Source: a virus
Length of the DNA stretch: 64,000 nucleotides
Direction: 5' to 3' (one strand)
IMG/VR virus record: IMGVR_UViG_3300045988_162372
How positions within the stretch are numbered: the stretch's first letter is position 1; every line of letters begins with the position of its first letter. The position numbers and the translations under genes are program-made. Shown here one piece after another: positions 39,355 through 61,003 of the stretch. Under the pieces are notes generated by a model. That model had not been told where the DNA came from and searched no databases. It saw nothing but the letters and a program-made list of their open reading frames with translations.

Positions 39355-39403
39355 ATTGCTTTATTAGTAAGTTAAATAATAAAATTCAGTAATTTATAAA
39401 ATG

Positions 39404-39985: not shown

Positions 39986-40418
39986 TTCTTTTCAATAATT
40001 TTTGATAAAAAATCAAATGAGTTTCATGTGTCCTACTCTCTAACTCTTTATATGTCATCCATCTATATCTATCAATTTCAGGGGTTTTACCATCTTCTGT
40101 AAAATTTGAATGACATTCGTTAGGGTCGATATTAGGGTATTCTAAACCAAAGGCAATTGCTGTCTTTCTTGGATTTTGAAGAACACTTCCAAGAGGTATT
40201 AAATAGCTACTTTGGCAATCTTTCATCGAAAGACCAGTTTCTTCTTTAAATTCTCTTATTGCGGCATCCACCCAATGTTCATCTCCTTCTGTACCACCCT
40301 TTAGAAACGCCCAATAATCAATGTTTTTCCATCTTTCGCCTCCTGGATGTCCTACAAAGAACTCCATCTCATTGTTTTTATTCACTCTAAAAGGAATGAT
40401 TCCTGCTGAATATTTCAT
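39966..40418 (-). CDS. NUDIX hydrolase
   Basis: 150 aa with NUDIX box GGTEGDEHWVDAAIREFKEETGL. Confidence 0.8.
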   Translation of the reverse strand: MKYSAGIIPFRVNKNNEMEFFVGHPGGERWKNIDYWAFLKGGTEGDEHWVDAAIREFKEETGLSMKDCQSSYLIPLGSVLQNPRKTAIAFGLEYPNIDPNECHSNFTEDGKTPEIDRYRWMTYKELESRTHETHLIFYQKLLKRNEDYNK

Positions 40419-40425
40419 ATATTAT

Positions 40426-41547: not shown

Positions 41548-41568
41548 ATTCTTTACTTTTCAACGCTG

Positions 41569-41576
41569 CAAATTTA
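41569..41576 (-). promoter_or_regulatory. Bacteroidetes -7 promoter box
   Basis: caaattta (TAAATTTG on the - strand), 22 nt upstream of the dnaJ start. Confidence 0.45.
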
Positions 41577-41609
41577 TAGTTTTTATCTGTATTGCCAAAA
41601 TTATTATAG

Positions 41610-42752: not shown

Positions 42753-42834
42753 AATTCTAATATATTATATATAATAAATATATAATAATTTCAAAAAACT
42801 TGATACTTGAATACTGATATATTAAAATTAACTT

Positions 42835-44766: not shown

Positions 44767-44880
44767 ATTTTAATTTCTTTAATTTATACTTTATTATTAA
44801 TAATTTATATGAAAATTTTTATAAGAAAGAGAAAGGAACTAAGTTTTGTCTTAATTCCATTCCTCTTATTTCTTTTTTTT

Positions 44881-45282
44881 TTATTTAACAATACTTGTAA
44901 TTGCTTCAAGTTTGTTCTTATATTGCATTACACTATCTTGCAATTGTTTATTTGTTTCACTAAGTTTCTTCACACTTGCCTCAAGCTCTTCAATACGCTT
45001 CTTATAGTCAGTTTCGTTTTTATCGCATCCACACTTGCAAGTGTCGTTTGATTTATCAGAAAACTCTTTTCTCTCATCAAAACCTTCGTTCTTTACACAC
45101 TTACCATTCTTGTATTCCTTGTCACTGTGTGTAACGTGCTTGCCATTTTCGTATTCATCGTAAACACTTCTGAAATAGGTTTCATTTTCTTTCTTATCTT
45201 CATTATCAGAAGATTTTCTGCTCTCACTTACTTCGCTTATTACGTCCATAAAGACATTCAAAAGTTCTTCAAATTTAGTCAT
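44881..45282 (-). CDS. hypothetical coiled-coil protein
   Basis: 133 aa. Not recognisably GrpE. Confidence 0.5.
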   Translation of the reverse strand: MTKFEELLNVFMDVISEVSESRKSSDNEDKKENETYFRSVYDEYENGKHVTHSDKEYKNGKCVKNEGFDERKEFSDKSNDTCKCGCDKNETDYKKRIEELEASVKKLSETNKQLQDSVMQYKNKLEAITSIVK

Positions 45283-45370
45283 ATCTTTATTCTTTTTATC
45301 AAGTTTATAATTTAACTTTCACTATCTATATATACAACAGTCGTGCCAAACTTATTAAACTGACAAAATG

Positions 45371-47491
45371 TCAGAATTTAGAAACAATATCTTTATAATA
45401 AGATTCTTCATTGTCAATATTCCCTCTTGTCTTCTCACTTACCAAATTATAGAATTCCTCCATCTTCGTTTTTGGCAGTACAGAGTTTTCCGAAAGATAT
45501 TTTGCTGATGCTTTCAACATTTTCAACCATTCATAACTTTTGAATGTTGAACGTACTTCATTCCAACATTTATCAATGGTTTGTTTAATTTCTTTATCAA
45601 TATCATCTTGATTAGTTGGTTTAAATATACTTCCACAATCTGTTGATTTTACATCATTAAGATAAGTGGTAACAAGTGAGCTATTACCTAAAAGATAATC
45701 TCTTACATAACGTGAAGCTAATGTAGTTGCCTTACGCAAATCACTAGAAGCACCAGTTGTCAAGTGTTCCCGTCCAAATATGACTTCTTCTGCAACATAT
45801 CCGCCCAATGATACTTTAATCATATCAAGTATTTCTTTTGCAGATTGAGGTCTGTCATTTGGTTTTATTTCAGGCATCATAAATCCACCCGAATTAACGT
45901 CAGTAGTTACTGAACGAACAGATTTAGGCATCTTATGAAACAGTTTTGCATACATTACAAAATGTCCAGATTCATGAACTGCAACTAATGCTTGTGTATC
46001 ATCTTTCTTGCTCTCACGCAAAATTTCAACCCTTAGTTTTTCCTTGAATTTATATCTTCCTACCTTTGTATCATCCTTATACACTTCAGCATAAGTATAT
46101 CCTCTTGAATGGGAATATTTAATAGTGTCAATTGTCTGACCTTCTTTGTAAGCTTTCTCAATAACAAAAGGTAATTTACTTCTTACTATTTCCTGAACTG
46201 TTGAAAATACAGGACGTGTACCATGTGTAGGAAATACACCTTCTTTATACAAGATATTGTTGATACTCTTATCGAAAACAAGTTTGTAACCAGTTTCCCT
46301 TAATGTAACATCAGCATATTTATCCAACTGCAATTGAATAATCTTCTTAAAGGTTTCAGAAGAAAAAGAAGGATAAATCACGTGTATATTCCCCAAACGT
46401 GCAATTTGTTCATTTCTGAAACGTCTTTTCAATGCTTCCTTAATATCTACAATTGTTAACTTTTTAGTCATTTCGTGAAATTGGTCAGGTGACATATCTG
46501 GATTTACATCAAAACTGATACGGTATGCTTCATCCAAATTTGCAATCACAAAGATAACTGAATCTTTGAAATTAAGTGTATAACCTTTCTGATAATATTC
46601 AGAACATTCATTAACCAACATGAATATTTCATCAATATTCATTGTCTTAATCATATTATGGAAATCTATTTTATCAATTTGTTTTCTCGTTCTATCATAA
46701 TACTCATAAATCCTTTCAAGATAATGATCTCTAATAAACATTTCATTACTCGAATTAATACTATCAGCAATTAAAACTGGTCTATCATAACCACAATCAC
46801 CTTCAATATATTCGCCTCCTTTTGGGTTTTTTTCTTCCTTCAGATGAAAATTAAAAAAATTTCCAAATGTTTTCTTTTCATATTCACCAAATCCTTTCAG
46901 ACATTCATCGGCATTTACCCATACTCCATTTTTTAATTGAATAGGTGTCTGTCTGTTGATAATCTCCATATATCTCATAAGACGAAGCATGGAACGTACA
47001 TTGCCATAATTATGCTTCTTCTCAAGAATACCAGTATCTAACAATTCCCAAAATGTTTTCAAACCACTTTTCTTATCCTTTTCGCATCCTGTTTCATCTA
47101 ATGTTGCTGCATATTGGAATTCATCGTAAATGAACATGCGATTTGAACGTTCGCTTGAAAGTTGCTCTTCGATAGTATCTTCGATTTCCCATGCATTCAT
47201 TTCGTCTATCTGTGCGAAGTTAAAATAAACGTAATCTCTTTCGATTTGCAAAAGTTCTGAAATACGTTTAACTAATTGTGTCTTTCCGCAGCCACTCATT
47301 CCAAACAGATTGATAATCATAGGACGTTCCTGCAATTCAGGAAACAAAAACCATGTTCTCAAATTATCCATAACTGTATCAATTTGATAGTCAATACCAA
47401 CAAATTCTTTTTTCAACTGTACAATGGCATCATTAATCAATTGATTTTTAGCGTTAACTTTCTCAATGTCAATCTTAATATTATTTTCCAT
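45371..47491 (-). CDS. soluble AAA+ ATPase / M41 (FtsH-like) zinc metalloprotease fusion
   Basis: 706 aa. Walker A GMSGCGKTQ, HESGH zinc motif and FtsH-like GGYVAEEVIFG...TTGASSDL. No N-terminal transmembrane segments. Confidence 0.7.
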   Translation of the reverse strand: MENNIKIDIEKVNAKNQLINDAIVQLKKEFVGIDYQIDTVMDNLRTWFLFPELQERPMIINLFGMSGCGKTQLVKRISELLQIERDYVYFNFAQIDEMNAWEIEDTIEEQLSSERSNRMFIYDEFQYAATLDETGCEKDKKSGLKTFWELLDTGILEKKHNYGNVRSMLRLMRYMEIINRQTPIQLKNGVWVNADECLKGFGEYEKKTFGNFFNFHLKEEKNPKGGEYIEGDCGYDRPVLIADSINSSNEMFIRDHYLERIYEYYDRTRKQIDKIDFHNMIKTMNIDEIFMLVNECSEYYQKGYTLNFKDSVIFVIANLDEAYRISFDVNPDMSPDQFHEMTKKLTIVDIKEALKRRFRNEQIARLGNIHVIYPSFSSETFKKIIQLQLDKYADVTLRETGYKLVFDKSINNILYKEGVFPTHGTRPVFSTVQEIVRSKLPFVIEKAYKEGQTIDTIKYSHSRGYTYAEVYKDDTKVGRYKFKEKLRVEILRESKKDDTQALVAVHESGHFVMYAKLFHKMPKSVRSVTTDVNSGGFMMPEIKPNDRPQSAKEILDMIKVSLGGYVAEEVIFGREHLTTGASSDLRKATTLASRYVRDYLLGNSSLVTTYLNDVKSTDCGSIFKPTNQDDIDKEIKQTIDKCWNEVRSTFKSYEWLKMLKASAKYLSENSVLPKTKMEEFYNLVSEKTRGNIDNEESYYKDIVSKF

Positions 47492-47517
47492 ATATCTAAT
47501 AAAATACTTTTACTTTT

Positions 47518-48258
47518 CTATTTCCAAAAACAGTATAAACAAGAATTTTCACATCTATGTGGTTTACCTCTCAACAATTCAGTTTTATTTGCAGGACAAT
47601 GACAAGATTTTCTCTGTTCTTTATTACCAACCAATGTGATTTTCTCCTTAAGTCCTAATATATCAATGTCTTTTTGCGATAAACAAGAAATGCTTTCAAT
47701 ATCAGGCTCTCCGCATACCTCCACATCAAAATTGAAATTGCTCCCGTAAGCCTTTAATATTTTATATATTTCAAGTCTGTCCTGCAAAGGGGCGTGAAAT
47801 GTGTCATAAGGTATCGGTAATCCTTTATCAGTGAATCTTTCTTTGACGTGTTTGTACATATCAAGAATTGAAAATCTAACCCTTGTTATCTTATCACCTT
47901 TAAATGCTTCAATTACATTTATCATTGTTTGTTTTCCTTTTTCAGTAGGAATACAAGGATCAATTCTCAAGACTACTTGACTAATAGGAAATCCTTTTTC
48001 TATTAACTGTAAAAATTTCTCATGTGTTTGCTCAATAGTAGGAACAAATGGCTCAAGAACAGTAGAACCATAACCCGTACAAGTAAGATGAAGAATTATT
48101 TTATCTTTATTTTCAATCAATTTCTCAATCAGTTTATCCGTTAGGCGTTTTGTGATAATAATATTGCAATCATACAAATTATCAAACGCTGACAAGTTAA
48201 ATGCTATCTCACCTGCTTCGGTGATTCCACATCTTTGTGTTTTATCTGCTATTGCCAT
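47518..48258 (-). CDS. DUF1848-like protein
   Basis: 246 aa with a C-terminal Cys cluster CHCPANK...HRCENSCLYCFW. Confidence 0.4.
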   Translation of the reverse strand: MAIADKTQRCGITEAGEIAFNLSAFDNLYDCNIIITKRLTDKLIEKLIENKDKIILHLTCTGYGSTVLEPFVPTIEQTHEKFLQLIEKGFPISQVVLRIDPCIPTEKGKQTMINVIEAFKGDKITRVRFSILDMYKHVKERFTDKGLPIPYDTFHAPLQDRLEIYKILKAYGSNFNFDVEVCGEPDIESISCLSQKDIDILGLKEKITLVGNKEQRKSCHCPANKTELLRGKPHRCENSCLYCFWK

Positions 48259-48278
48259 ATTAATAGAAATTAGTGTAT

Positions 48279-49253
48279 TTAAAACATGCAGCTTCCTTCC
48301 ATTGTATCCAAAATAGAGAAGTTAGTTGGGATAACAATAGGCATCTTCTTACGTTTAAAATCGCTTTTCACGTAACGGGAAACAACTTTATCTACCATTT
48401 CCTTATTATATTTCTCGTACAATTTCTCGATATAACTTGTAAAAGAGCTTGCATCACTAAAATAAACAACCGTTTGAAGAATGTCATCCACTTGGTTATA
48501 ATTATCCGCACCTATCTGTTCCAAATCACTGTTTGAAATTCCAAGACCGTCTGTAGGAGTAAGTCTGATGGATGCCCACAATGCATTATACATCTTTTCA
48601 TATGTATGAGACAAAGTGATATCATCATCTATAAGATTTTCCGCTTTCTTTTTGTATTCATATGCGATATATTTCGCCAACTGATATACTTCAGTTTTCC
48701 ATAAACCTCCAATAGGATTGAAATCCCCTTGATCCCCGTGAATTGTGAAGAAACCAAGATAATGTTCTGTGAGGTTATCTGTATCAATGACAAGACCCTT
48801 ATTGATACCTGCCAAATTGTACAAATAAGTCATTCTAAGACGTGCTTGAATATTACCATTTGCAATAGGTGTCTGATTTTCGGATCTATCTTCAATACCC
48901 TTATACGAGAAACCCTTTACTTTTTTATCTTCTTCATGCTCTACTATTTCCCCAAGCATATTTTCGTAAATCCATGAAAGATTTACAACACGAAAATCAT
49001 CGCAAAATGCGTTACCTACAAGTTTTGAAGCATCATATTCTTCACTATGCATTACTTGATTTTTAATAGGAAGACTTCTACCAATAAATTTAATTTGTCG
49101 ATTACTCCTTAGTGACACCTCATGACAAATGGCGGCACAAACTGTTGAATCAATACCACCACTAATACCTAACACCATAGAATCTAAGCCGTTTGACACA
49201 ATGTAATTTTCAGTGGTCTCAATCAAGTGTTCAAATACTTTGCTATTTTCCAT
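48279..49253 (-). CDS. nadE: NAD+ synthetase (NadE-like, PP-loop ATPase)
   Basis: SGGIDS PP-loop in LGISGGIDSTV. Start moved to MENSKVF because the track start abuts the -7 box at 49283-49290. Confidence 0.7.
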   Translation of the reverse strand: MENSKVFEHLIETTENYIVSNGLDSMVLGISGGIDSTVCAAICHEVSLRSNRQIKFIGRSLPIKNQVMHSEEYDASKLVGNAFCDDFRVVNLSWIYENMLGEIVEHEEDKKVKGFSYKGIEDRSENQTPIANGNIQARLRMTYLYNLAGINKGLVIDTDNLTEHYLGFFTIHGDQGDFNPIGGLWKTEVYQLAKYIAYEYKKKAENLIDDDITLSHTYEKMYNALWASIRLTPTDGLGISNSDLEQIGADNYNQVDDILQTVVYFSDASSFTSYIEKLYEKYNKEMVDKVVSRYVKSDFKRKKMPIVIPTNFSILDTMEGSCMF

Positions 49254-49282
49254 AATTTTTTGTATTACTAATTTAGACACTG

Positions 49283-49290
49283 CAAAGATA
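49283..49290 (-). promoter_or_regulatory. Bacteroidetes -7 promoter box
   Basis: caaagata, 30 nt upstream of ATG 49253. Confidence 0.55.
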
Positions 49291-49334
49291 CGGTAATGTT
49301 CTTATATCTCCAAATAAATAATAATTAATTTTTG

Positions 49335-50009: not shown

Positions 50010-50152
50010 ATTAAGCAGAGAAAGGGTTAAGTTGGTGTCTTATAAACGATTATTACTGGAATCGAACCAGTTACCCTATATACCCAAAATATATGCTCTA
50101 ACCTAATGAGCTAAACAATCCGAAGTAACCAACTTTGTCACTACTGCTTTAT
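50010..50152 (-). ncRNA. clamp module A: bipartite leader/trailer stem enclosing tRNA-Pro
   Basis: Leader ATAAAGCAG-TAGTGA-CAAAGTTGGT-TACTTCG. Trailer ACCAACTT-AACCCTTTCT-CTGCTTAAT. The two helices (8 bp, and 8 of 9 bp) flank the conserved loop. Confidence 0.6.
50047..50120 (-). tRNA. tRNA-Pro (TGG)
   Basis: Acceptor GATTGTT/AATAATC (one G-U pair), D arm GCTC-ATTAGGTTA-GAGC, anticodon arm TATAT-TTTGGGT-ATATA, T arm ACTGG-TTCGATT-CCAGT. Confidence 0.8.
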
Positions 50153-50162: not shown

Positions 50163-50283
50163 AACTCAAAGAAAATTAAGACAGCGTTTTGATTTCGACA
50201 GGAATCGAACCTGTAACACAAACCTTGGAAGGGTTTTTATCTACCATTGATATACGAAGTATCTGTCTTCTCACTATTGAGTT
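50163..50283 (-). ncRNA. clamp module D: bipartite stem enclosing a tRNA-Gly-like body
   Basis: Leader AACTCAA-TAGTGA-GAAGACAG-ATACTTCG. Trailer CTGTCTT-AATTTTCT-TTGAGTT. Both helices are 7 bp. Confidence 0.6.
50190..50261 (-). tRNA. tRNA-Gly (TCC)-like with a defective acceptor stem
   Basis: D arm TATC-AATGGTA-GATA, anticodon arm AAACC-CTTCCAA-GGTTT, T arm ACAGG-TTCGATT-CCTGT, 3' acceptor CGAAATC. The only 5' partner is the clamp's conserved TACTTCG (5 of 7 pairs). Confidence 0.5.
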
Positions 50284-50306: not shown

Positions 50307-50314
50307 CAAATGTA
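50307..50314 (-). promoter_or_regulatory. Bacteroidetes -7 promoter box for the distal tRNA cluster
   Basis: caaatgta (TACATTTG on the - strand), 24 nt upstream of module D. Confidence 0.5.
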
Positions 50315-50458
50315 CAACTTTATTTCGAAACTACCAAATATTTTCCAAACTTTTTACAAAAAAAAATCAATCATCTTAATTTATATGATTGAATTTCATA
50401 AGTAACCATTAATGTTAATTCTTAACTTCCCCACCCTCAAACAGAAATTGGAGCATCT

Positions 50459-53011: not shown

Positions 53012-53096
53012 AAGATAAAGAAAATCATCAAGAGTTTTGTAAAGTTCCATAATTCTCATATTTTTCACGAAGTATCTCTTGAATCACTATTATCTT
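53012..53096 (-). ncRNA. clamp module E: bipartite stem with only a 33-nt non-tRNA insert
   Basis: Leader AAGATAA-TAGTGA-TTCAAGAG-ATACTTCG. Trailer CTCTTGA-TGATTTTCT-TTATCTT. Both helices are 7 bp. Confidence 0.55.
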
Positions 53097-53106: not shown

Positions 53107-53230
53107 GGATAGAAGTTGGATTCCAACCAACAAACCGCACTTACCACGAGCTTCACGACCATGCTCTCGACTTTGCATTTCTGCTTTCAGATGAACTGTC
53201 ATTAGGTCGTTTTACCATCATTTTCTATCC
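53107..53230 (-). ncRNA. 124-nt tRNA-like RNA of unusual architecture
   Basis: Perfect 8-bp terminal stem GGATAGAA/TTCTATCC. A T-arm-like hairpin GTTGG-TTGGAAT-CCAAC abuts the 3' strand, with a D-arm-like GCTC-GTGGTAA-GTGC just upstream. A 6-bp helix ACGACC/GGTCGT encloses 44 nt. Confidence 0.45.
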
Positions 53231-54083: not shown

Positions 54084-54230
54084 ATGTAAAGAGAACAATT
54101 AAAGTTTGTGTTAAAATTAAAAGTTCTGCAAACTTTCGTGTATACCATTTCACCACATATCCGAAAATTGAGGATATGGTCGGAATCGAACCGACAAAAT
54201 CGAAGTAACAAACTTTTCACTACTTTACAT
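54084..54230 (-). ncRNA. clamp module B enclosing a circularly permuted tRNA-Cys(GCA)-like body
   Basis: - strand order: leader ATGTAAAG-TAGTGA-AAAGTTTGT-TACTTCG; ATTTT; T arm GTCGG-TTCGATT-CCGAC; 3' acceptor CATATCC; 9-nt loop TCAATTTTC; 5' acceptor GGATATG; D arm GTGA-AATGGTAT-ACAC; anticodon arm AAAGT-TTGCAGA-ACTTT; trailer ACAAACTTT-AATTGTTCT-CTTTACAT. Confidence 0.6.
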
Positions 54231-54311: not shown

Positions 54312-54454
54312 AACAATAGAGAAACTTCAAAACAGTTTTTTGTATTATCAATTCTTAAAAGGAATTTGCTCTAACCGACTGAGCTAATCTGAATATCAGA
54401 TGATGGACTCGAACCACCGCTTAACGAAGTAACTGTTTTATCACTACTATTGTT
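54312..54454 (-). ncRNA. clamp module C enclosing a circularly permuted tRNA-Lys(TTT)-like body
   Basis: - strand order: leader AACAATAG-TAGTGA-TAAAACAGT-TACTTCG; TTAAGC; T arm GGTGG-TTCGAGT-CCATC; acceptor hairpin ATCTGA-TAT-TCAGAT; TA; D arm GCTC-AGTCGGTTA-GAGC; anticodon arm AATTC-CTTTTAA-GAATT; trailer AACTGTTTT-GAAGTTTCT-CTATTGTT. Confidence 0.6.
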
Positions 54455-54528: not shown

Positions 54529-55212
54529 AATTGTGTTTCCTCTATTATCACAACAGTAGAAACACTTAAATAGTTACTACCATAAAAAATTCATAAAAAT
54601 ATCAATTATGTGTTGTTACACCAAAATCAATATAATGCTGTAAATCCCTTTTCAGTTCAACTGGTCACTTTCATAACCAATAGCTCTACAACATTTGAAC
54701 CGTACTCCTGATTATACAAATTTATTTTAGTTATAAGTGCAAGGTTTTTATATCATCAGTTTGTGTACAAGTTTCTTTTAACATTTATCGGACTAAGTTG
54801 CGTTTCTTCCTATCACCAGAAGGCGTTAATAGATCCCGTGCGCAGATACTCATTATATGATAGCTACTCTCAAGCCTACATTTAATTGATAATTTTTATT
54901 ATATTCCCCTAACAGCACTCCTGTCAATCACTCCATCCTAAAGGTTAGAGCTTGAGCAAAGGGGATTAACCCTTTGACATGGCATATTGACAAAGGCTCT
55001 TACATGGTCTTGGAAACACCAATTCCACTTGCGTTCATAATAGACTGTTGCCCTCTTCAATATTATTAGAAGGTTCAAGATTTCTGGTTTGGGAATTAAG
55101 CTACTGTAAACCTTTGTTCGCTTTTCGTTATATTAAGTTGTTCCAATATGTCAAAGAACTCATCTTGCTTTTATCTTTGTCAAAATCTCAACTGCAACCC
55201 TTGTTTTGATTT
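54529..55212 (-). ncRNA. about 680-nt ORF-free, promoter-driven region (candidate large structured ncRNA)
   Basis: No ORF of 60 aa or more on either strand. It looks less AT-rich than ordinary spacers here. A -7 box sits at 55220-55227, and there are many local helices (for example CAAAGGG-TTAATC-CCCTTTG and GTGTTTC...GAAACAC). Confidence 0.4.
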
Positions 55213-55219
55213 GACATTG

Positions 55220-55227
55220 CAAAGATA
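55220..55227 (-). promoter_or_regulatory. Bacteroidetes -7 promoter box
   Basis: caaagata at the head of the 680-nt noncoding region and the tRNA array. Confidence 0.5.
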
Positions 55228-55288
55228 CTGCAAGTTTTTGAAATCTCCAAATTTTTATTGTTAAAAATTGTAGAATTTTCAAATTTTG

Positions 55289-55363: not shown

Positions 55364-55393
55364 ATCTTTTTCAAAGAACTCTTCTTTATTTTG

Positions 55394-55484
55394 TCAGGAT
55401 GGAGGGATTCGAACCCCCGTTTGACTGTTACATCTACTCTCCTGCTCCCAAAGCAGGCATGTTGACCTACTACACCACATCCTG
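55394..55484 (-). tRNA. 91-nt tRNA with Pro anticodon (TGG) and a 22-nt unpaired variable-region insert
   Basis: Perfect acceptor CAGGATG/CATCCTG, D arm GTGT-AGTAGGTCA-ACAT, anticodon arm CCTGC-TTTGGGA-GCAGG, insert AGAGTAGATGTAACAGTCAAAC, T arm GGGGG-TTCGAAT-CCCTC, A73. Confidence 0.55.
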
Positions 55485-55505: not shown

Positions 55506-55513
55506 CAAAGATA
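55506..55513 (-). promoter_or_regulatory. Bacteroidetes -7 promoter box
   Basis: caaagata, 22 nt upstream of the 91-nt tRNA. Confidence 0.55.
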
Positions 55514-55544
55514 CAAACAATTTTTGAAACTACCAAATATTTTC

Positions 55545-56048
55545 TCAAAAATCTTTTGTTCTTTTTCTTATTTCACAAACATCATATCCAAGCAACCCTT
55601 CATTATAACTTTCCACGTAATATACTATCCATTTATCGTAGTAATCCAATCTTGGAAAGAACGTATCAGCATCATTAACCCTTTTCTTTATTCTTGTAAG
55701 ATATATCTTATCCACAATATCCTTTTCAAGTGCTTCCTTGTAAATACTTCCACCACCTATAATATATATGTCTTTTTCATATTCCTTTGCTTTCTTCATT
55801 GCTTCTTCAAGACTGTGAACCCATATCAGATTTCCTTCGTCTTTATTGTCACTTCTACTGACAACAATGTTTATTCTATCTTTCAATGGTTTTCCAATAC
55901 TTTCATATGTTTTTCTTCCCATAATGACTACATTACTAGTCGTTAATCTTTTAAAATTTTGCATATCTTCTTTCAAATGAAAGAGAAGTTTGTTATCTTT
56001 TCCTATTGCATCATTCTCGCTTACCGCTACTATAATAATTGTTTCCAT
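55545..56048 (-). CDS. folA: dihydrofolate reductase
   Basis: 167 aa with IVAVSENDAIGKDNKL, VIMGRKTYESIG and IIGGGSIY motifs. Confidence 0.85.
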   Translation of the reverse strand: METIIIVAVSENDAIGKDNKLLFHLKEDMQNFKRLTTSNVVIMGRKTYESIGKPLKDRINIVVSRSDNKDEGNLIWVHSLEEAMKKAKEYEKDIYIIGGGSIYKEALEKDIVDKIYLTRIKKRVNDADTFFPRLDYYDKWIVYYVESYNEGLLGYDVCEIRKRTKDF

Positions 56049-57626: not shown

Positions 57627-57634
57627 CAAAGATA
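57627..57634 (-). promoter_or_regulatory. Bacteroidetes -7 promoter box
   Basis: caaagata, 21 nt upstream of tRNA-Arg. Confidence 0.55.
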
Positions 57635-59134
57635 CTACTTATTTTTGATACAGCCAAATTTTTCATCATAAAAATTTGTTAAAAAGATATTTTTTCTTTC
57701 TTTCCACTTGAAATTCAAGTATTTTTCCAATTCTTTGGTTGTAAAAGTTGAAAAACCTCCGTTCTTGTATCTTCCAAGAGAATGTATATAGTTTACAAAC
57801 TCGTTACTGTTTATAGTTTCTTCAACGAACTGCCTTACCTCACTACTTCTAAAATCATCCTTGGAAAGGATATAAAAACCGCTATATATCCCTGTTTCGC
57901 TACAACAATAATGTAATTTAATGTCTTCCCTTGTTTTTATCAAGTTGTTTATTGCATATTTGTTCTTGTTTACATCATTAATTGCCTGACTTCTTCCATA
58001 AAGATACCAATTTTCCTTTGCTGTATCAACTTTTAACTCGTATGCTTTTCGCAAGAGTATGTTTTGAATAGGGATACTCAATTCTTCAAATTTCAAAGGT
58101 TTTCCTTCCTTGTCATAAGGGTATATTATGCTTTGAAGTATATTTTTTGATGCCTTTGTACAAAATATCATGTTGGGGTCTCCCAAGAAACCTGCCATTT
58201 CAGACATTTTACCAATAAACAATTTGTCGTTAAGTGTAGCAAAGCCGTTTTTTACAGTAAACACTTTATCTGTTGCTTCTATATCATCAATATGCCTCAA
58301 TATACTTAATATTTCATTACATTTGAAGTAAAAATTTGATTTATCGCCAATTTTATATTCTTTCAATAGTGCATTATTAACTTCTTTACATATTCCCTCT
58401 TCATTAAAAGTATATACCTTTGTAGTTTCATTATGAAACCAATTACCAAGTTCTGTTATCATTGTAAAAGTAGTGGCTTCATTGAATACCTTTTTATGCT
58501 GCATATCGGTAATTGATATAATACCATCTTTCTCTAAGAGCCATTCCCTGAATTGTTGTGCATAAAGACTGGTAGTCCATGAGCTTGGTGTAATGTATAT
58601 GAGTTTTCCTGTATGTTTCAGCATTTTAATCCCAATCCAAAAGAACATCACATAAGAATCAAATGTACCTTTCGCATCTCCACATATCTGCTTGTATTTC
58701 AATCGTTTTTCTTGTGATAAATCATGAATTTTGCAATACGGTGGATTACCTACAACAAAATCCATTAATTTATACTTATTTAAACAATCAACAGTATCTG
58801 CATTACATATATCCCATTCAACACCTGTAATACTATACTTTGCTGCAACACTATTAAGTCTTAAAACTGTCTTTCTACATAGATTACTATCAATCTCAAT
58901 ACCATGAATATATTTTTCAAGACCTTTCTTTAATTCGTTTTTTGAAATATTCCTATCCAATATACCATGTTTGATATACCTATCAACAATTTCTGCAAGA
59001 AAAGCACCATCTCCACAACTATTATCAATAATGTGTTTATCATGTATATCTGCTGACGGTCTATACCCTATTTTGTCAAGCATCATATTGACTACCCAAT
59101 CTGGCGTAAATATTTGTTCATTGTGCATAACCAA
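57635..59134 (-). CDS. N6-adenine DNA methyltransferase (Eco57I-like gamma class)
   Basis: 499 aa. The N-terminal FTPDWVVNMM, DNSCGDGAF (AdoMet motif) and VGNPPY catalytic motif. Confidence 0.75.
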   Translation of the reverse strand: MVMHNEQIFTPDWVVNMMLDKIGYRPSADIHDKHIIDNSCGDGAFLAEIVDRYIKHGILDRNISKNELKKGLEKYIHGIEIDSNLCRKTVLRLNSVAAKYSITGVEWDICNADTVDCLNKYKLMDFVVGNPPYCKIHDLSQEKRLKYKQICGDAKGTFDSYVMFFWIGIKMLKHTGKLIYITPSSWTTSLYAQQFREWLLEKDGIISITDMQHKKVFNEATTFTMITELGNWFHNETTKVYTFNEEGICKEVNNALLKEYKIGDKSNFYFKCNEILSILRHIDDIEATDKVFTVKNGFATLNDKLFIGKMSEMAGFLGDPNMIFCTKASKNILQSIIYPYDKEGKPLKFEELSIPIQNILLRKAYELKVDTAKENWYLYGRSQAINDVNKNKYAINNLIKTREDIKLHYCCSETGIYSGFYILSKDDFRSSEVRQFVEETINSNEFVNYIHSLGRYKNGGFSTFTTKELEKYLNFKWKERKNIFLTNFYDEKFGCIKNK

Positions 59135-59241
59135 TCATTCTTACATTTTGATATTTCAATTATATTAAAAATTAAAAGTTGGTTATTATACAAACATTTA
59201 CATCCATATGACAACCAACTTGCATTCGAAATTTTCAGTGC

Positions 59242-60909
59242 TTAAATTTCAATCGCTTCTATTTCTTTCAAGATTGCACCAAAGCCCTTAGTATTGGACT
59301 TGATTACATCAAAGATGTTTGCACTCCATCCTGCAATATTCAAAACACGTTCTGGTTTGTAGAACACATTATTTCCCCTGGTGTTGTGTATATCTACTAC
59401 AATGATATTGCAAAGAGGATTAATCTTTCTGAATTGTTTTATCAAATCTTGGAATGTTGCACTTCTTTCAGTTCCACTTGTCCCGTACCAAGACGTAGAA
59501 CCGCTTGAGCCAATTTGACAATCTGAAAAGACAATGATGTTGTCAATTTTCTTCTTTTCTCTTACAGCTTGTCTAAAGAAGTCATAAATACCTTGCTCAG
59601 TTCCTCCACCACAGTTTGCACCTTTATCAAACGACCTCTTGTTGAAATCAAGCAATCTTTGGCTTCTATCAATTTTTACTGGGATAAGTCTGTCACCAAA
59701 CAATCCAATATATACATTCTTCTGACGGTATGCCATCATACTTCCAAACAAATTGCCAATCATAGCAGTAGTTGTTTTGGAAAACGCTGACACTCTTGAA
59801 CTTCCACCACCATCCCCGCGTACCGATCCCGAATGATCAATCAATATTGCAGTATTTCCTTCCAATTCTGGAATATTCTGACAAGAAATCTGCAATGCAT
59901 CTTCAATTGCATCCAGTACCTTTTCCTTCAATTTAGCAAACTCCGTAGCGGTTATTGTCTGATTGTTGTAATCTTCCTCAAATGCAATAGAGGTATCACT
60001 CTTTTTATCAGAAAAACTCATCTTTTCGATTTCCTCGTAAGCTGTTGCGAAACGGAAAGGAAGCAATCTTGAATTCAAGACAGCGGTTTCGTTTGTCAAC
60101 TGTGCGCAAGCATCATCTACGCTCTTAGGCGCATAAAGAATAATGTTTCTCAGATTTCTCAAGAGATTCATTATAGGCATACCCTTAACATTAGACAATA
60201 CGTTTTCGATTGCCTCTTTCTTGGCAGCTTCTTTCTCTTGCACACTCTTCCCTTGTGTCTTTTGTCCTGCCTTTGTCATTTCCTTTTCCAACACCTTTGA
60301 GGCATACAGTCCTGCAAGTGATTCACCATTGACAAGGTTGTGATAAGCCTGTTGGTTTCTCTGTGTCCCCTTTGGATGGAAAAGATTAACCAAATCAAGC
60401 ATTTTAACCTGACGACTGTTCATCTTGTACTTATCAATCTGATAAACATCCAAACGCTCCAATGCAGTCTTAAAACCTTTCTTGATAGCATTAGGTATTT
60501 TTCTGATTTTCTTCAAATCCATCTTGTTCTGAACAGCATAGGCTGACAGAATTTCAGACATATCATCTGGACGAACAACAATCTTATTGTAGAATCTCTT
60601 CGACCATTCTGTACCAGATGCTCTCTTTGCAATTGTTGCTGCAATCAAATGTGATACTGAACGTAGATTTCCTTCATTACGCACGTATAGTGCCAACTTT
60701 GCGGCGAACAAAGGATCCACCTCGTTCAACTTGTTCACAATTCTGTTTACAACTTCCTTTTCTGTCTCGTAATAATGATCACCAGACAAGAATGTTGTCA
60801 TACAAGTTGATACCAACTCTTCTTTTGCTGAAAGTTGATATGCGTTCTCACCCATTGCATTTACTACTGTAGGCTTTACGCCTTCTGCTTTTGCGTTGTA
60901 CTTACTCAT
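59242..60909 (-). CDS. rsr: Ro60 ortholog (TROVE domain + vWA domain)
   Basis: 555 aa. The N-terminal NAMGENAYQLSAKEEL...FYE...DPLFAAKLALYVRNEGNLR is TROVE-like. The C-terminal vWA has the MIDAS motif LIDHSGSVRG. Confidence 0.7.
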   Translation of the reverse strand: MSKYNAKAEGVKPTVVNAMGENAYQLSAKEELVSTCMTTFLSGDHYYETEKEVVNRIVNKLNEVDPLFAAKLALYVRNEGNLRSVSHLIAATIAKRASGTEWSKRFYNKIVVRPDDMSEILSAYAVQNKMDLKKIRKIPNAIKKGFKTALERLDVYQIDKYKMNSRQVKMLDLVNLFHPKGTQRNQQAYHNLVNGESLAGLYASKVLEKEMTKAGQKTQGKSVQEKEAAKKEAIENVLSNVKGMPIMNLLRNLRNIILYAPKSVDDACAQLTNETAVLNSRLLPFRFATAYEEIEKMSFSDKKSDTSIAFEEDYNNQTITATEFAKLKEKVLDAIEDALQISCQNIPELEGNTAILIDHSGSVRGDGGGSSRVSAFSKTTTAMIGNLFGSMMAYRQKNVYIGLFGDRLIPVKIDRSQRLLDFNKRSFDKGANCGGGTEQGIYDFFRQAVREKKKIDNIIVFSDCQIGSSGSTSWYGTSGTERSATFQDLIKQFRKINPLCNIIVVDIHNTRGNNVFYKPERVLNIAGWSANIFDVIKSNTKGFGAILKEIEAIEI

Positions 60910-60961: not shown

Positions 60962-60969
60962 CAAAAATA
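60962..60969 (-). promoter_or_regulatory. Bacteroidetes -7 promoter box
   Basis: caaaaata, 53 nt upstream of the rsr start. Confidence 0.5.
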
Positions 60970-61003
60970 CGACTAATTTTTGATATTACCAAATATCTAA
61001 TAG

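What the first reader, a model, noticed from the sequence alone, without database searches (positions are those of the whole stretch)
59242..60909. Phage Ro60 (TROVE-vWA) ortholog with candidate Y-RNA-like partners 5 kb away
Bacterial Ro60 (Rsr) binds Y RNAs. The bacterial and phage Y RNAs (YrlA type) combine a long stem made from the 5' and 3' ends, holding the Ro60 site, with a tRNA-mimicking domain. As I recall, the acceptor-like helix of that domain is closed by a loop.

Modules B and C, and the 124-nt element at 53107-53230, have that general logic: a terminal stem from both ends, an internal conserved loop, and T-arm then capped acceptor then D-arm order. No other Y-RNA candidate sits next to rsr itself.

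The window also carries other RNA-repair-associated genes: HAD phosphatase 6823-7311, RlaP-like nucleotidyltransferase 27566-28897, CCA-adding enzyme 25275-26672, and a PTH2-like protein 36410-36925. Together this suggests an RNA quality-control or tRNA-repair toolkit, possibly countering host tRNA-targeting defence.
Basis: partly seen in the sequence, partly recalled or inferred. Interest (0 to 1): 0.7.

Follow-up and report, generated by a model that had tools for sequence, protein, structure and literature searches.

The report
Huge-phage Ro60 with divergent Y RNAs
A huge phage encodes a Ro60-type RNA-binding ring protein, and its tRNA gene array holds five small RNA genes with a shared, divergent version of the Ro60-docking stem that carry nothing, a rearranged tRNA mimic, or a whole tRNA-like body, which extends a known protein-RNA partnership in a new direction.

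Summary
The 555-aa ORF at 59242-60909(-) is a real Ro60-family protein. It has a TROVE domain (63.6 bits), a vWA fold with an invariant MIDAS motif, and its top 12 structural matches are all Ro60. It matches PHROG 850 end to end, and the nearest solved relative is Thermus phage phiLo Ro60.

Five RNA modules (M1-M5) lie on the same strand, 4.8-9.2 kb downstream, inside the tRNA array. They share a "clamp": stem1, a bulged U, URGUGR opposite UUUCY, stem2, then UACUUCG. A refined structural scan of the window plus relatives finds 84 modules on the TROVE strand and 1 on the opposite strand, with strong covariation.

In relatives the modules sit directly beside the TROVE gene. Rfam's YrlA model aligns its Ro60-binding stem onto the clamp. 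The modules are therefore divergent YrlA/YrlB-type Y RNAs that lack the GNCGAA motif and fall below Rfam's threshold.

M1 and M2 carry permuted tRNA mimics, M3 only a short loop, and M4 and M5 full cloverleaves. The M4 anticodon differs between orthologues and U33 of M5 is not conserved.

Verdict: a new variant of a known kind, with a correct core interpretation.

The parts
59242..60909 (-). rsr-like gene: a 555-aa Ro60-family protein with a TROVE/HEAT domain (about aa 20-300) and a vWA domain with MIDAS residues D358, S360, S362, T437 and D463.
   Evidence: ORF. Pfam TROVE 63.6 bits. PHROG 850 E 1e-36 over the full length. phiLo Ro60 9KOP/9L5Y at E 4e-10 by phmmer and 1e-13 by profile. Foldseek top 12 matches are all Ro60. 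MIDAS residues invariant.
60962..60993 (-). Bacteroidota-type promoter motif (TTTG-N20-TATTTTTG) upstream of rsr. The same promoter type precedes module plus rsr in L004 and L005.
   Evidence: Motif scan: 17 matches, all on the minus strand, against 4.1 expected. Comparison with the L004/L005 upstream sequence.
59176..59221 (-). Terminator-like hairpin (AAGTTGGTT...AACCAACTT followed by a T-rich run) downstream of rsr. No clamp is present here.
   Evidence: Read directly from the sequence.
54312..54454 (-). M1, a YrlA-type Y-RNA-like gene.
- Clamp: stem1 AACAAUAG/CUAUUGUU, UAGUGA at 54441-54446, stem2 AAAACAGUU/AACUGUUUU, then UUACUUCG.
- Cargo: T-arm 54402-54418, capped acceptor hairpin 54387-54401, D-arm 54368-54386, anticodon-arm-like hairpin 54350-54366 with loop CUUUUAA.
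- Position: between tRNA-Asn (2-nt gap) and tRNA-Gly (7-nt gap).
   Evidence: Rfam YrlA full-length match at 33.3 bits, E 4e-4 over 13.5 kb. The MFE fold reproduces the clamp with z = -2.7. Orthologues in 10 or more loci show a covarying AS hairpin and a compensatory change in the extra hairpin.
54084..54230 (-). M2, a second YrlA-type module.
- Clamp: stem1 AUGUAAAG/CUUUACAU, UAGUGA at 54217-54222, stem2 AAAGUUUGU/ACAAACUUU.
- Cargo: T-arm 54179-54195, capped acceptor CAUAUCC...GGAUAUG, D-like arm GUGGUGAAAUGGUAUACAC, and an extra hairpin.
- Position: between tRNA-Gly (1-nt gap) and tRNA-Phe (11-nt gap).
   Evidence: z = -2.3. Orthologues at 82-100% identity have an AS hairpin that changes sequence while keeping its pairing.
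53012..53096 (-). M3, a minimal (YrlB-like) module. Clamp: AAGAUAA/UUAUCUU, UAGUGA at 53084-53089, UCAAGAG/CUCUUGA. The cargo is only 41 nt by the stem-2 boundaries (about 33 nt after the AUACUUCG junction) and A/U-rich. It lies 5 nt upstream of tRNA-Thr.
   Evidence: Conserved in L154 and L158 at 94-96%. It has the same class of short cargo as the modules that bracket the TROVE gene in L011 and L013-L016.
50163..50283 (-). M4, a clamp (AACUCAA/UUGAGUU, UAGUGA at 50271-50276, AAGACAG/CUGUCUU) enclosing a cloverleaf tRNA-like body.
- ARAGORN calls it tRNA-Gly UCC at 50190-50261.
- The 5' strand of its acceptor stem is the conserved UACUUCG junction itself, and only 5 of 7 positions pair.
- It has its own promoter at 50307-50338.
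   Evidence: (tRNA model 51.8 bits). The orthologous cargo carries the anticodon UCC, GUU, UUC or UUU in different relatives while the clamp is conserved. Promoter.
50013..50149 (-). M5, a clamp (AAGCAG/CUGCUU, UAGUGA at 50138-50143, AAGUUGGU/ACCAACUU) enclosing a full cloverleaf (tRNA-Pro UGG, 50047-50120). The body has a 7-bp acceptor stem and starts right after UUACUUCG. M5 lies 5 nt upstream of tRNA-Asp.
   Evidence: (58.9 bits). The anticodon UGG is kept in all 6 sequences compared (window plus 5 orthologues), but position 33 is U, G or A. A second free-standing tRNA-Pro(UGG) lies at 55393-55484.
50307..50338 (-). Bacteroidota-type promoter motif 24 nt upstream of M4. It would drive M4, M5, tRNA-Asp and tRNA-Met.
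55220..55251 (-). Bacteroidota-type promoter motif heading the unit that runs from an unclassified structured RNA through tRNA-Asn, M1, tRNA-Gly, M2 and tRNA-Phe.

Best explanation
The gene encodes a phage Ro60/Rsr-family ring protein (TROVE HEAT repeats plus a vWA/MIDAS domain). Its RNA partners are most likely the five clamp RNAs M1-M5.

The clamp:
- It is a terminal helix made from the 5' and 3' ends of each RNA.
- It is interrupted by a conserved bulged-U helix and an asymmetric loop: 5' U-R-G-U-G-R opposite 3' U-U-U-C-Y.
- It ends in a YUAY-like UUAC(UUCG) junction.
- This is the positional homologue of the Ro60-binding stem of bacterial YrlA and YrlB.

Inferred mechanism:
1. The RNAs are transcribed together with the tRNAs from Bacteroidota-type promoters.
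2. Cleavage of the abutting tRNAs by RNase P and RNase Z trims the RNAs to size.
3. The clamp docks on the outer surface of the Ro60 ring.
4. The variable cargo presents a tRNA-shaped handle. The cargo is nothing, a circularly permuted tRNA mimic, or a whole tRNA-like cloverleaf.
5. The handle recruits tRNA-binding or RNA-degrading factors to Ro60 during infection. PNPase does this in the Deinococcus, Salmonella and phiLo RYPER complexes. The factors could also be tRNA repair or processing enzymes.

Shown here: the protein family, the conserved RNA structure, its strand specificity, its genomic linkage to TROVE genes, and its homology to the YrlA stem.

Inferred only: binding, processing, the identity of the effector, and any anti-defence role.
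For: Protein:
- Pfam TROVE 63.6 bits.
- PHROG 850 over the full length, E 1e-36.
- phiLo Ro60 is the only PDB sequence hit, and it is colinear through the MIDAS region.
- The Foldseek top 12 are all Ro60 (phage, frog, human, Deinococcus) at probability 1.0. E-values then drop about 4 orders of magnitude to isolated vWA domains.

RNA structure:
- The signature occurs 5 times in the window against 0.03 expected.
- The strict structural scan finds 39 modules on the TROVE strand, 1 on the reverse strand, and 0-1 in each of five shuffles.
- The refined scan finds 84 against 1 in 643 kb.
- RNAalifold recovers stem1 with 8 of 9 covarying pairs. It also reveals an R-Y pair that I had not selected for: A-U 17 times, G-C 12 times, never broken.
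- The covariation score is 1.20, against 0.26 in shuffles and at most 0.25 when the partners are slid.
- G.U outnumbers A.C by 33 to 7 when both are allowed.

Linkage to TROVE:
- Modules bracket the TROVE gene in L011 and L013-L016: one ends 26-33 nt before the start codon and one begins 10-50 nt after the gene's end. ARAGORN found no tRNA genes in these loci.
- Modules lie directly upstream of TROVE in L004, L007, L009, L010, L012, L017-L020, L022, L059, L065, L076 and L084. Those TROVE proteins are only 25-65% identical to the window's.
- In a scan started from the RNA signature, 7 of 120 mostly chance matches carried a TROVE gene. In all 7 the signature was on the TROVE strand and upstream of the gene.

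Homology to YrlA:
- Sub-threshold YrlA matches of 33-53 bits (E as low as 5e-9) lie upstream of TROVE in L004, L059, L065 and L076; those in L004 and L059 overlap a clamp module.
- In L059 the YrlA model aligns stem1, the 5' loop, stem2, the 3' loop and CUAc onto the clamp, UAGUG and UUAC.

Precedent:
- Phage YrlA genes lie near Ro60 genes (PMC4201824).
- phiLo Ro60 binds two upstream Y-like RNAs and forms a complex with host PNPase (PMC12135203).
Against: - No binding data exist for this protein or these RNAs.
- In this window the modules are 4.8-9.2 kb from rsr and in separate transcription units. That is outside the 4-kb criterion of Chen et al.
- The GNCGAAN0-1G/CGAA motif thought to contact Ro60 is absent from the clamp.
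- The best Rfam YrlA score is 33 bits against a gathering score of 69.
- The structural model of the protein is of low confidence (pLDDT 60.5, TM 0.33-0.41), so the ring architecture is not demonstrated.
- M4 and M5 score as good tRNAs, so they could simply be tRNA precursors.
- No PNPase, RtcB or RNA ligase was found among the 35 window ORFs tested.
Confidence: 0.72

Rival explanations
1. The clamps are processing signals, not Ro60 ligands. They would be RNase III-type sites or other transcript punctuation or stability elements, like the irregular hairpins that flank T7 early genes. They would separate tRNAs and mRNAs in long transcripts, and their nearness to the TROVE gene would be incidental.
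For: - The clamps are long, imperfect helices with an internal loop.
- They are packed 1-13 nt from neighbouring tRNAs.
- They bracket a protein gene on both sides in L011 and L013-L016.
- In the window they belong to different transcription units from rsr.
Against: - In each locus of about 21 kb from the 52%-identity clade, the only two modules flank the TROVE gene and none of the roughly 20 other genes.
- The same adjacency recurs in many independent lineages, down to TROVE proteins only 25% identical to the window's.
- Rfam's YrlA model aligns onto the clamp and cargo as a single RNA.
- The cargo is a conserved tRNA mimic, not a spacer.
Confidence: 0.1
2. M4 and M5 (and similar modules in relatives) are ordinary decoding tRNA genes. 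Their precursors happen to have extended leader-trailer helices. Only the YrlA-like and short modules would be Ro60 partners, or Ro60 would act on M4 and M5 only briefly as a pre-tRNA chaperone or quality-control factor.
For: - The tRNA model scores 58.9 bits (M5) and 51.8 bits (M4), within the range of the other tRNAs in the array.
- M5 has a complete 7-bp acceptor stem.
- Its UGG anticodon is kept in all 6 sequences compared, the window plus 5 orthologues.
- The phage encodes a CCA-adding enzyme.
Against: - U33 of M5 is G or A in three orthologues.
- The M4 acceptor stem pairs at only 5 of 7 positions, and its 5' strand is the conserved junction motif.
- The M4 cargo carries four different anticodons in close relatives. 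Two of those relatives (L153 and L154) encode the identical TROVE protein.
- In the loci checked (the window, L001 and L012), each clamp-borne anticodon is duplicated by a free-standing tRNA in the same locus.
- The clamp is identical in kind to the clamp of the modules that carry no tRNA.
Confidence: 0.15
3. The modules are small mobile DNA elements: MITE-like units with terminal inverted repeats, or cassettes linked to homing endonucleases. They would spread within tRNA arrays without any RNA function.
For: - Stem1 and stem2 are inverted repeats around a variable cargo.
- The number and position of modules vary between relatives.
- Homing-endonuclease ORFs are inserted in the arrays of relatives.
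Against: - The stem sequences differ between copies while pairing is preserved, with up to 6 pair types per position.
- G.U is favoured over A.C by 33 to 7.
- Orientation is strictly tied to the TROVE and tRNA strand, 84 to 1.
- The conserved parts are the unpaired loops, not the repeat arms.
Confidence: 0.03

Closest known systems
Rsr (bacterial Ro60) with YrlA Y RNAs of Salmonella, Mycobacterium and mycobacteriophages (Chen et al. 2014, PMC4201824; Rfam RF02553)
   Same: - A TROVE-vWA protein with small RNAs on the same strand.
- A terminal 5'/3' stem made of two helices with an asymmetric internal loop.
- A YUAY motif at the top of the stem.
- A tRNA-like domain in the order T-arm, capped acceptor stem-loop, D-arm (M1 and M2).
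- The Rfam model aligns over its full length.
   Different: - UAGUG with a bulged U replaces GNCGAAN0-1G.
- Scores are 33-53 bits against a gathering score of 69.
- M1 and M2 carry an extra hairpin that resembles an anticodon arm, so the clamp emerges from the position of the variable region.
- There are five copies, scattered in a tRNA array 4.8-9.2 kb from rsr, rather than one or two copies within 4 kb.
- Some cargos are unpermuted cloverleaves.
Thermus phage phiLo Ro60 with Yrl1 and Yrl2 (PMC12135203; PDB 9KOP, 9L5Y)
   Same: - It is the closest solved protein (E 4e-10 by phmmer, 1e-13 by profile, and the top Foldseek match).
- It is phage-encoded.
- Two Y-like RNAs lie just upstream of its gene, as in most relatives of the window phage.
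- Its RNAs have a stem, bulge, stem layout.
   Different: - The structural alignment shows about 19% identity.
- The phiLo Yrls were identified through a CGAA motif and have no reported tRNA-like domain.
- Binding and a PNPase complex were shown experimentally for phiLo, whereas nothing has been tested here.
Salmonella YrlB and metazoan Y RNAs (a minimal stem plus loop)
   Same: M3, and the short-cargo modules that bracket TROVE genes in L011 and L013-L016, consist of only the docking stem and a small loop. Their helix contains a single bulged pyrimidine, as does the Ro60 site of animal Y RNAs.
   Different: The sequence of the site differs: UAGUGA/UUUCU here, GGUCCGA/UUGACC in animals. Whether the bulged U plays the role of the bulged C9 of animal Y RNAs is unknown.
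ROT/TROVE proteins noted in jumbo phages as part of an RNA-repair repertoire alongside RlaP, CCA-adding enzymes and tRNA arrays (Iyer et al. 2021, PMC7824862)
   Same: The same combination of genes is present in this window: TROVE, RlaP, HAD-SAK, a CCA-adding enzyme and a large tRNA array.
   Different: That survey reports the protein only and does not describe the RNA partners. In this window the genes are dispersed, and no RNA ligase was found.
Circularly permuted tRNA genes, for example in Cyanidioschyzon merolae (recalled from memory, not tested here)
   Same: M1 contains all four tRNA arms in permuted order: T-arm, acceptor, D-arm, anticodon-like arm.
   Different: In M1 the acceptor is closed by a loop, and nothing suggests circularisation or maturation into a functional tRNA. 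The resemblance is only topological.

Membership tests
Ro60/Rsr protein family (TROVE + vWA ring) | N-terminal TROVE (HEAT-repeat) domain | tested here: met
   Pfam PF05731 at 63.6 bits against a cutoff of 23, E 2.5e-17. The profile match to phiLo Ro60 spans residues 20-294.
Ro60/Rsr protein family (TROVE + vWA ring) | C-terminal vWA domain with a MIDAS motif (DxSxS...T...D) | tested here: met
   D358, S360, S362, T437 and D463 are invariant in 16 homologues. The model shows an alternating beta-alpha pattern over residues 353-506. Isolated vWA domains are the next Foldseek matches after Ro60. Pfam VWA_2 reaches only 15.2 bits against a cutoff of 27.
Ro60/Rsr protein family (TROVE + vWA ring) | A closed ring architecture that superposes on solved Ro60 structures | tested here: inconclusive
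   The Foldseek top 12 matches are all Ro60, at probability 1.0 and colinear over 530-575 columns. However, TM-scores are 0.33-0.41 and rmsd is 17-21 A, because the AF2 model is weak (pLDDT 60.5, pTM 0.59).
Ro60/Rsr protein family (TROVE + vWA ring) | Orthology to cellular Rsr/Ro60 (closest relatives are cellular Ro60 proteins) | tested here: not met
   Sequence and profile searches of the PDB reach only phage phiLo Ro60. Xenopus, human and Deinococcus Ro60 are not reached. No NCBIfam model matches. The protein belongs to phage family PHROG 850. It is a family member but not a demonstrated ortholog.
Ro60/Rsr protein family (TROVE + vWA ring) | Binds Y RNAs or misfolded RNAs | not testable with these tools
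   This needs RIP-seq or EMSA.
YrlA-type Y RNA (Rfam RF02553; Chen et al. 2014) | Encoded on the same strand as the Ro60 gene | tested here: met
   All five window modules are on the minus strand with rsr. Across all loci the count is 84 to 1 in favour of the TROVE strand.
YrlA-type Y RNA (Rfam RF02553; Chen et al. 2014) | Encoded within about 4 kb of the Ro60 gene | tested here: not met
   The window modules lie 4.8-9.2 kb downstream of the rsr stop codon. The criterion is met in relatives, where modules lie 30-1600 nt from the TROVE gene: L004, L007, L009-L020, L022, L059, L065, L076 and L084.
YrlA-type Y RNA (Rfam RF02553; Chen et al. 2014) | Reaches the Rfam gathering score of 69 bits | tested here: not met
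   M1 scores 33.3 bits. M2-M5 have no YrlA match. The best relative, L059, scores 52.7 bits.
YrlA-type Y RNA (Rfam RF02553; Chen et al. 2014) | GNCGAAN0-1G motif near the 5' end (the putative Ro60 contact) | tested here: not met
   The homologous position holds (R)UAGUG(A/G) in every module. No conserved CGAA is present in the clamp.
YrlA-type Y RNA (Rfam RF02553; Chen et al. 2014) | A terminal stem formed by the 5' and 3' ends and interrupted by an internal loop | tested here: met
   All 15 pairs are maintained in 29 distinct modules, and 14 of them show changes on both sides. RNAalifold supports stem1 independently. The MFE folds reproduce the clamp. The YrlA model aligns its stems onto the clamp.
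YrlA-type Y RNA (Rfam RF02553; Chen et al. 2014) | A tRNA-like domain in the order (V)-T-AS-D, with conserved T and D loops | tested here: met
   M1 and M2 only: the T-arms have a UUCGAnU loop, the AS hairpin of 6-7 bp covaries, and the D-arm is UAGCUCAGUCGGUUAGAGC. M3 has no such domain. M4 and M5 carry an unpermuted cloverleaf instead.
YrlA-type Y RNA (Rfam RF02553; Chen et al. 2014) | A YUAY motif at the junction of the stem and the V region | tested here: met
   UUAC is present in M1, M2 and M5 and aligns to the model's CUAc. M3 and M4 have AUAC, so the first position is a purine.
Decoding tRNA (for the M4 and M5 cargos) | A cloverleaf that scores above the tRNA model threshold | tested here: met
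   Rfam tRNA scores are 58.9 bits (M5) and 51.8 bits (M4) against a gathering score of 29. ARAGORN calls Pro-UGG and Gly-UCC.
Decoding tRNA (for the M4 and M5 cargos) | U33 and the anticodon identity conserved among orthologues | tested here: not met
   Position 33 of M5 is U in the window, L142 and L001, G in L154 and L146, and A in L145. The M4 anticodon is UCC, GUU, UUC or UUU in different orthologues.
Decoding tRNA (for the M4 and M5 cargos) | Processed to a free tRNA, aminoacylated, and used in translation | not testable with these tools
   This needs tRNA-seq, acid-gel northern blots and polysome analysis.

The most novel reading that the evidence does not exclude
The clamp is a universal Ro60 docking adaptor, and huge phages mount interchangeable tRNA bodies on it. 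The bodies are permuted mimics or whole cloverleaves, and their anticodon loops are swapped over very short evolutionary distances. M4 carries UCC, GUU, UUC or UUU. The first module of the L009 group carries GAU, UUU or UCU with almost no other change. The resulting Ro60-tRNA-decoy particle would bait, sense or sequester the host's anticodon nucleases or other tRNA-targeting defences, or it would hand damaged tRNAs to the phage's RlaP, CCA-adding and HAD-SAK enzymes. The anticodon swaps would then track the specificity of the local host defence.
Probability: 0.15. Interest if true: 0.85.

Novelty: new variant of a known kind. Interest (0 to 1): 0.6.

Why it matters
Ro60 and Y RNAs have been studied for forty years because of lupus and Sjogren autoimmunity, yet what they do in bacteria and phages is still unclear.

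- This clade offers dozens of natural variants of one docking stem, with mix-and-match cargos and a docking motif different from the canonical CGAA.
- That makes two questions directly testable: what Ro60 recognises, and what the tRNA-like handle is for.
- Current Rfam thresholds miss a widespread group of phage Y RNAs. All 84 modules found here fall below the gathering score.
- Some "tRNA genes" called in huge-phage arrays by ARAGORN or tRNAscan are probably parts of Y-like RNAs. This affects estimates of phage tRNA repertoires and arguments about codon usage.
- If the swapping of anticodon loops reflects conflict with host tRNA-cleaving defences, it would link Ro60 to phage counter-defence.

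Tried and rejected
1. **Clamp-only covariance model.** Model R1 was built from the register-fixed alignment A2. It could not span the 20-110-nt cargo and returned only noise (best E 1.7). None of the five true modules was found.
2. **Lenient duplex-energy scan.** It gave 139 forward hits against 109 reverse and 106 shuffled, so it had no discriminating power. The strict structural definitions replaced it.
3. **MAFFT alignment of short modules.** It misaligned stem2, so RNAalifold recovered only stem1 and the R-Y/G-C extension. Stem2 was therefore assessed on a register-fixed alignment. That makes the percentage paired circular, although the diversity of pair types is not.
4. **Similarity to deposited phages.** Megablast of the rsr region against GenBank phages found nothing.
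5. **NCBIfam.** No model matched the protein.
6. **Larger sample of the anticodon-switching module.** An exact-match scan of viral contigs returned only the four contigs already held, so the anticodon-variability observation rests on few sequences.
7. **A 3'-side CGAA partner for the conserved UUCG.** It is present only in M4 and its orthologues, so it is not a general feature.
8. **The 124-nt element as a sixth module.** Rejected.
9. **RtcB, RNA ligase, PNK or PNPase in the window.** None was found among the 35 ORFs tested. Smaller ORFs were not tested.
10. **Identity of the phage.** The listing of cluster members returned no accession or name for the NCBI-sourced member.


Full report
**The observation**

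The ORF at 59242-60909 on the minus strand is real and encodes 555 aa. It carries a Pfam TROVE domain at 63.6 bits against a cutoff of 23.

The vWA domain is weak by sequence (VWA_2 15.2 bits against 27). Three other results support it:
- a complete MIDAS signature (D358-x-S360-x-S362, T437, D463), invariant in 16 homologues of 69-90% identity;
- an alternating strand-helix pattern in the predicted model;
- isolated vWA domains as the next-best structural matches after Ro60.

The protein matches phage family PHROG 850 ("RNA-binding protein") end to end at E 1e-36. By sequence, the only solved relatives are 9KOP and 9L5Y. These are the Ro60 homologue of Thermus phage phiLo (PMC12135203).

An AlphaFold2 model from a shallow alignment is mediocre (pLDDT 60.5, pTM 0.59). 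Even so, its twelve best Foldseek matches are all Ro60 proteins: phiLo, Xenopus, human and Deinococcus Rsr. They have probability 1.0 and are colinear over 530-575 columns. Everything after them is about four orders of magnitude worse. TM-scores of 0.33-0.41 mean the ring itself is not demonstrated.

I conclude that the protein belongs to the Ro60 family. "Ortholog of cellular Rsr" is not shown.

**The RNA candidates**

All 21 tRNA genes lie on the minus strand between 49816 and 57606.

At gathering thresholds Rfam finds only tRNAs. A permissive scan finds a full-length YrlA match at 54339-54450(-), at 33.3 bits and E 4e-4. It shows a clear T-arm, a capped acceptor hairpin and a D-arm.

Reading the array revealed a second module with the same layout, and a shared 5' string. 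The pattern TAGTGA-N6-16-ACTTCG occurs five times in the window. All five copies are on the minus strand and inside the array, against 0.03 expected by chance.

Each copy has the same anatomy:
1. stem1, 6-8 bp;
2. UAGUGA;
3. stem2, 7-10 bp;
4. (U/A)UACUUCG;
5. the cargo;
6. the 3' strand of stem2;
7. a loop of 8-10 nt ending in UUUCU;
8. the 3' strand of stem1.

The five modules are:

| Module | Window coordinates (-) | Cargo |
|---|---|---|
| M1 | 54312-54454 | T-arm, capped acceptor, D-arm, extra hairpin |
| M2 | 54084-54230 | T-arm, capped acceptor, D-arm, extra hairpin |
| M3 | 53012-53096 | 41 nt (boundaries), A/U-rich |
| M4 | 50163-50283 | cloverleaf called tRNA-Gly(UCC) |
| M5 | 50013-50149 | cloverleaf called tRNA-Pro(UGG) |

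In M1 the extra hairpin looks like an anticodon arm: 5 bp with the 7-nt loop CUUUUAA.

**Is the clamp real?**

A protein-based scan of viral contigs gave 20 loci whose TROVE proteins are 26-78% identical to the window's. They come from contigs of up to 434 kb. More than 1,400 protein homologues exist, and near-identical copies occur on contigs of 350-370 kb.

- A strict structural definition found 39 modules on the TROVE strand, 1 on the reverse strand, and 0-1 in each of five shuffles.
- A refined definition found 84 against 1 in 643 kb.
- RNAalifold, run on MAFFT-aligned short modules, recovered stem1 independently, with compensatory changes at 8 of 9 pairs.
- RNAalifold also showed that the second base of the motif pairs with the last base of the 3' loop. 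UAGUGA goes with ...CU and UGGUGA goes with ...CC. The counts are A-U 17, G-C 12 and none broken, and this pair was not among my selection criteria. The first U of the motif is therefore a single-base bulge in a continuing helix.
- On 29 distinct modules, all 15 pairs hold with up to six pair types per position. The covariation score is 1.20, against 0.26 in shuffles and at most 0.25 in slid registers.
- When G.U and A.C were allowed equally, G.U outnumbered A.C by 33 to 7, as expected for an RNA read from this strand.

**Link to the TROVE gene**

In this window no module lies beside rsr. There is only a promoter upstream and a terminator-like hairpin downstream. In this respect the window phage is the exception.

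- In L011 and L013-L016 (about 52% protein identity) the gene is bracketed by two short-cargo modules. One ends 26-33 nt before the start codon and the other begins 10-50 nt after the gene's end. No tRNA gene was found in these loci, which extend 8-10 kb on each side of the gene.
- In L004 a YrlA-type module ends about 55 nt before the ATG.
- L007 and L018 have three tandem modules upstream. The L009 group (L009, L010, L012, L019) has two or three.
- L017 has one module 60 nt upstream.
- L020, whose TROVE protein is only 26% identical, has a UUGUGA...AUACUUCA clamp with T, AS and D cargo just before its ATG.
- I also ran the test in the other direction. A scan of viral contigs for the 14-base RNA signature returned 120 stretches, most of them chance matches. 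Seven carried a TROVE gene of 25-62% identity. In all seven the signature was on the TROVE strand and upstream of the gene.

**Homology to YrlA**

Next to these divergent TROVE genes, Rfam's YrlA model gives sub-threshold but highly significant matches:

| Locus | Score (bits) | Note |
|---|---|---|
| L059 | 52.7 | E 5e-9 |
| L065 | 44.8 and 33.2 | two matches |
| L076 | 43.7 and 37.4 | two matches |
| L004 | 34.5 | |

The L059 alignment maps the model directly onto the clamp:

| YrlA model element | L059 clamp |
|---|---|
| stem1 cggCga / ucGccg | AAGGUA / UCCUUU |
| 5' loop AUGCu | GUGAU |
| stem2 uggGgaa / uucCcca | GAAAAAG / CUUUUUC |
| 3' loop aAaAcUuG | AACUUUUC |
| CUAc | UUAC |

So the clamp's UAGUG occupies the place of the GNCGAAN0-1G motif, which Chen et al. 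proposed as the Ro60 contact. The clamp's UUAC is their conserved YUAY (PMC4201824, sections read).

The modules are therefore divergent members of the YrlA/YrlB kind of Y RNA. They fail three formal criteria: the motif, the Rfam gathering score and, in this window, the 4-kb distance.

**Cargo classes and their evolution**

There are three classes:
- short loops of 18-58 nt, like YrlB;
- permuted tRNA mimics, like YrlA;
- cloverleaves that ARAGORN calls as tRNAs.

Orthologues from close relatives were obtained through the look-up of encoding contigs and compared.

- **AS hairpin of M1 and M2.** It changes sequence while keeping 6-7 bp. Examples are AUCUGA/UCAGAU, AUUGCAG/CUGCAAU and AUUAUCC/GGAUGAU.
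- **Anticodon-like hairpin of M1.** It shows a compensatory change in L146.
- **M4.** The clamp is conserved, but the cargo carries UCC in the window, L153 and L158, GUU in L154, UUC in L142 and UUU in L001. L153 and L154 encode the identical TROVE protein. The 5' strand of the M4 acceptor stem is the conserved UACUUCG junction, and it pairs at only 5 of 7 positions.
- **M5.** It keeps UGG everywhere. Position 33, which is U in nearly all decoding tRNAs, is U in three sequences, G in two and A in one.
- **L009 group.** The first modules of L009 and L019 differ only at the anticodon (GAU against UCU) over about 125 nt. L012 has UUU.
- **Redundancy.** In the loci checked (the window, L001 and L012), each clamp-borne anticodon is duplicated by a free-standing tRNA in the same locus.

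Together these points argue that the cloverleaf cargos are tRNA-shaped handles or decoys rather than ordinary decoding tRNAs. This is not proven. The sample is small, and an attempt to enlarge it found nothing new.

**Expression and processing (inferred)**

A Bacteroidota-type promoter motif, TTTG-N18-22-TAnnTTTG, occurs 17 times in the window, always on the minus strand, against 4.1 expected. The relevant sites are:

| Promoter site (-) | Drives |
|---|---|
| 60962-60993 | rsr |
| 55220-55251 | the unit containing M1 and M2 |
| 50307-50338 | M4, which starts 24 nt downstream |

The same promoter type precedes module plus rsr in L004 and L005.

The modules abut tRNAs closely. The gaps in nucleotides are:
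- tRNA-Asn, 2, M1, 7, tRNA-Gly, 1, M2, 11, tRNA-Phe;
- M3, 5, tRNA-Thr;
- M4, 13, M5, 5, tRNA-Asp.

RNase P and RNase Z cleavage of the neighbouring tRNAs would therefore release the modules with defined ends.

**Mechanism**

By analogy with Rsr-Y RNA-PNPase complexes, and with phiLo Ro60, which binds its two upstream Y-like RNAs and forms a ternary complex with host PNPase (PMC12135203), I propose the following:
1. The bulged-U helix docks on the Ro60 ring.
2. The tRNA-shaped cargo recruits a tRNA-binding or RNA-degrading effector.
3. The short-cargo RNAs act as gates or competitors.

Nothing here shows binding, the effector or the biological role.

- **The 124-nt element (53107-53230).** It lacks the clamp motifs and has no Rfam match. 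Its T-like hairpin sits at the 3' end, next to the terminal stem. It is absent from the syntenic relatives. Its single homologue (L141) lies elsewhere in that genome, and the alignment shows many differences in both strands of the terminal stem there; pairing there was not checked. It is not a credible partner.
- **The "toolkit".** HAD_SAK_2, RlaP, the CCA-adding enzyme and a marginal PTH2 are confirmed. A YqeY-domain protein lies near the CCA enzyme. These genes are 22-52 kb from rsr, which itself sits between two DNA methyltransferase genes. No RtcB, RNA ligase or PNPase was found among the 35 ORFs tested. The idea agrees with the published view that some jumbo phages combine TROVE with RlaP, CCA-adding enzymes and tRNA arrays to counter attacks on tRNAs (PMC7824862). 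In this window it remains inference.

**Novelty**

Already known:
- phage Ro60 genes;
- phage YrlA RNAs (22 phages in Chen et al. 2014);
- a structurally characterised phage Ro60-Yrl complex;
- the presence of TROVE in jumbo phages.

New here:
- a widespread sub-family of Y-like RNAs in huge, probably Bacteroidota-infecting phages, invisible to Rfam at its thresholds;
- a different conserved docking motif;
- up to five copies embedded in a tRNA array;
- a modular cargo that includes complete permuted tRNAs and unpermuted cloverleaves with fast-changing anticodons.

I rate it a new variant of a known kind, with interest 0.6.

Noticed in passing
window 54532-54922 (-), within the ORF-poor stretch 54529-55219: A conserved non-coding region with its own promoter (55220-55251) lies directly upstream of tRNA-Asn and M1. 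It is 75-99% identical in a dozen relatives. RNAalifold on 6 sequences predicts 81 pairs, 17 of them with compensatory changes. No Rfam family matches. It is probably an unclassified structured RNA of 400-690 nt.
   Followed up: partly
window, 17 sites on the minus strand (for example 60962-60993, 57627-57658, 55506-55537, 55220-55251, 50307-50338, 49283-49314): The motif TTTG-N18-22-TAnnTTTG occurs 17 times, all on the coding strand, against 4.1 expected. It is the Bacteroidota promoter consensus (recalled from memory), so the host is probably a member of the Bacteroidota.
   Followed up: partly
L005 9800-9950, compared with L004 9793-9944: In L005 the YrlA-like module of L004 is replaced by an unrelated segment of about 120 nt, apparently structured, that lacks the UAGUGA motif. 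It lies between the same promoter and the same TROVE start region. It may be a different kind of RNA partner.
   Followed up: no
window 9027-10232 (-) and 11206-13848 (-): A reverse transcriptase (RVT_1, 70.9 bits) lies next to an 880-aa DUF285/BspA-type LRR protein. This may be a diversity-generating retroelement and its target gene.
   Followed up: no
window 59176-59221 (-): The arms of the terminator-like hairpin downstream of rsr (AAGUUGGUU/AACCAACUU) have the same sequence as stem2 of M5. This could be coincidence or the remnant of a module that once lay beside rsr.
   Followed up: no
window 55393-55484 (-): The free-standing tRNA-Pro(UGG) is 92 nt long, so it carries an insertion of about 18 nt compared with a normal tRNA. 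Relatives also have oversized tRNA-model matches of 152-154 nt in L004.
   Followed up: no
L008 17282-18007: In this relative a tmRNA gene (tag peptide GKKTYALAA) is followed immediately by two short-cargo clamp modules.
   Followed up: no
L141, L142, L154 and L158, about 18.1-21.6 kb: ORFs of homing-endonuclease type (HNH_3, NUMOD) are inserted at different places in the tRNA/Y-RNA arrays of near-identical phages. This helps explain why the spacing of the array varies.
   Followed up: no
window 35231-49280 (-): This is a cluster of auxiliary genes unusual for a phage: a Band_7/SPFH protein, a sigma-70 factor, DnaJ, DnaK (664 bits), an FtsH-like AAA+/M41 protease, DUF1848 and NAD synthase. DHFR lies inside the tRNA array at 55545-56048.
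   Followed up: no
L009 5914-6039, L012 8663-8789, L019 1461-1586: These near-identical clamp-cloverleaf modules differ almost only at the anticodon triplet: GAU, UUU and UCU. L009 and L019 have no other difference over about 125 nt. The sample could not be enlarged.
   Followed up: partly
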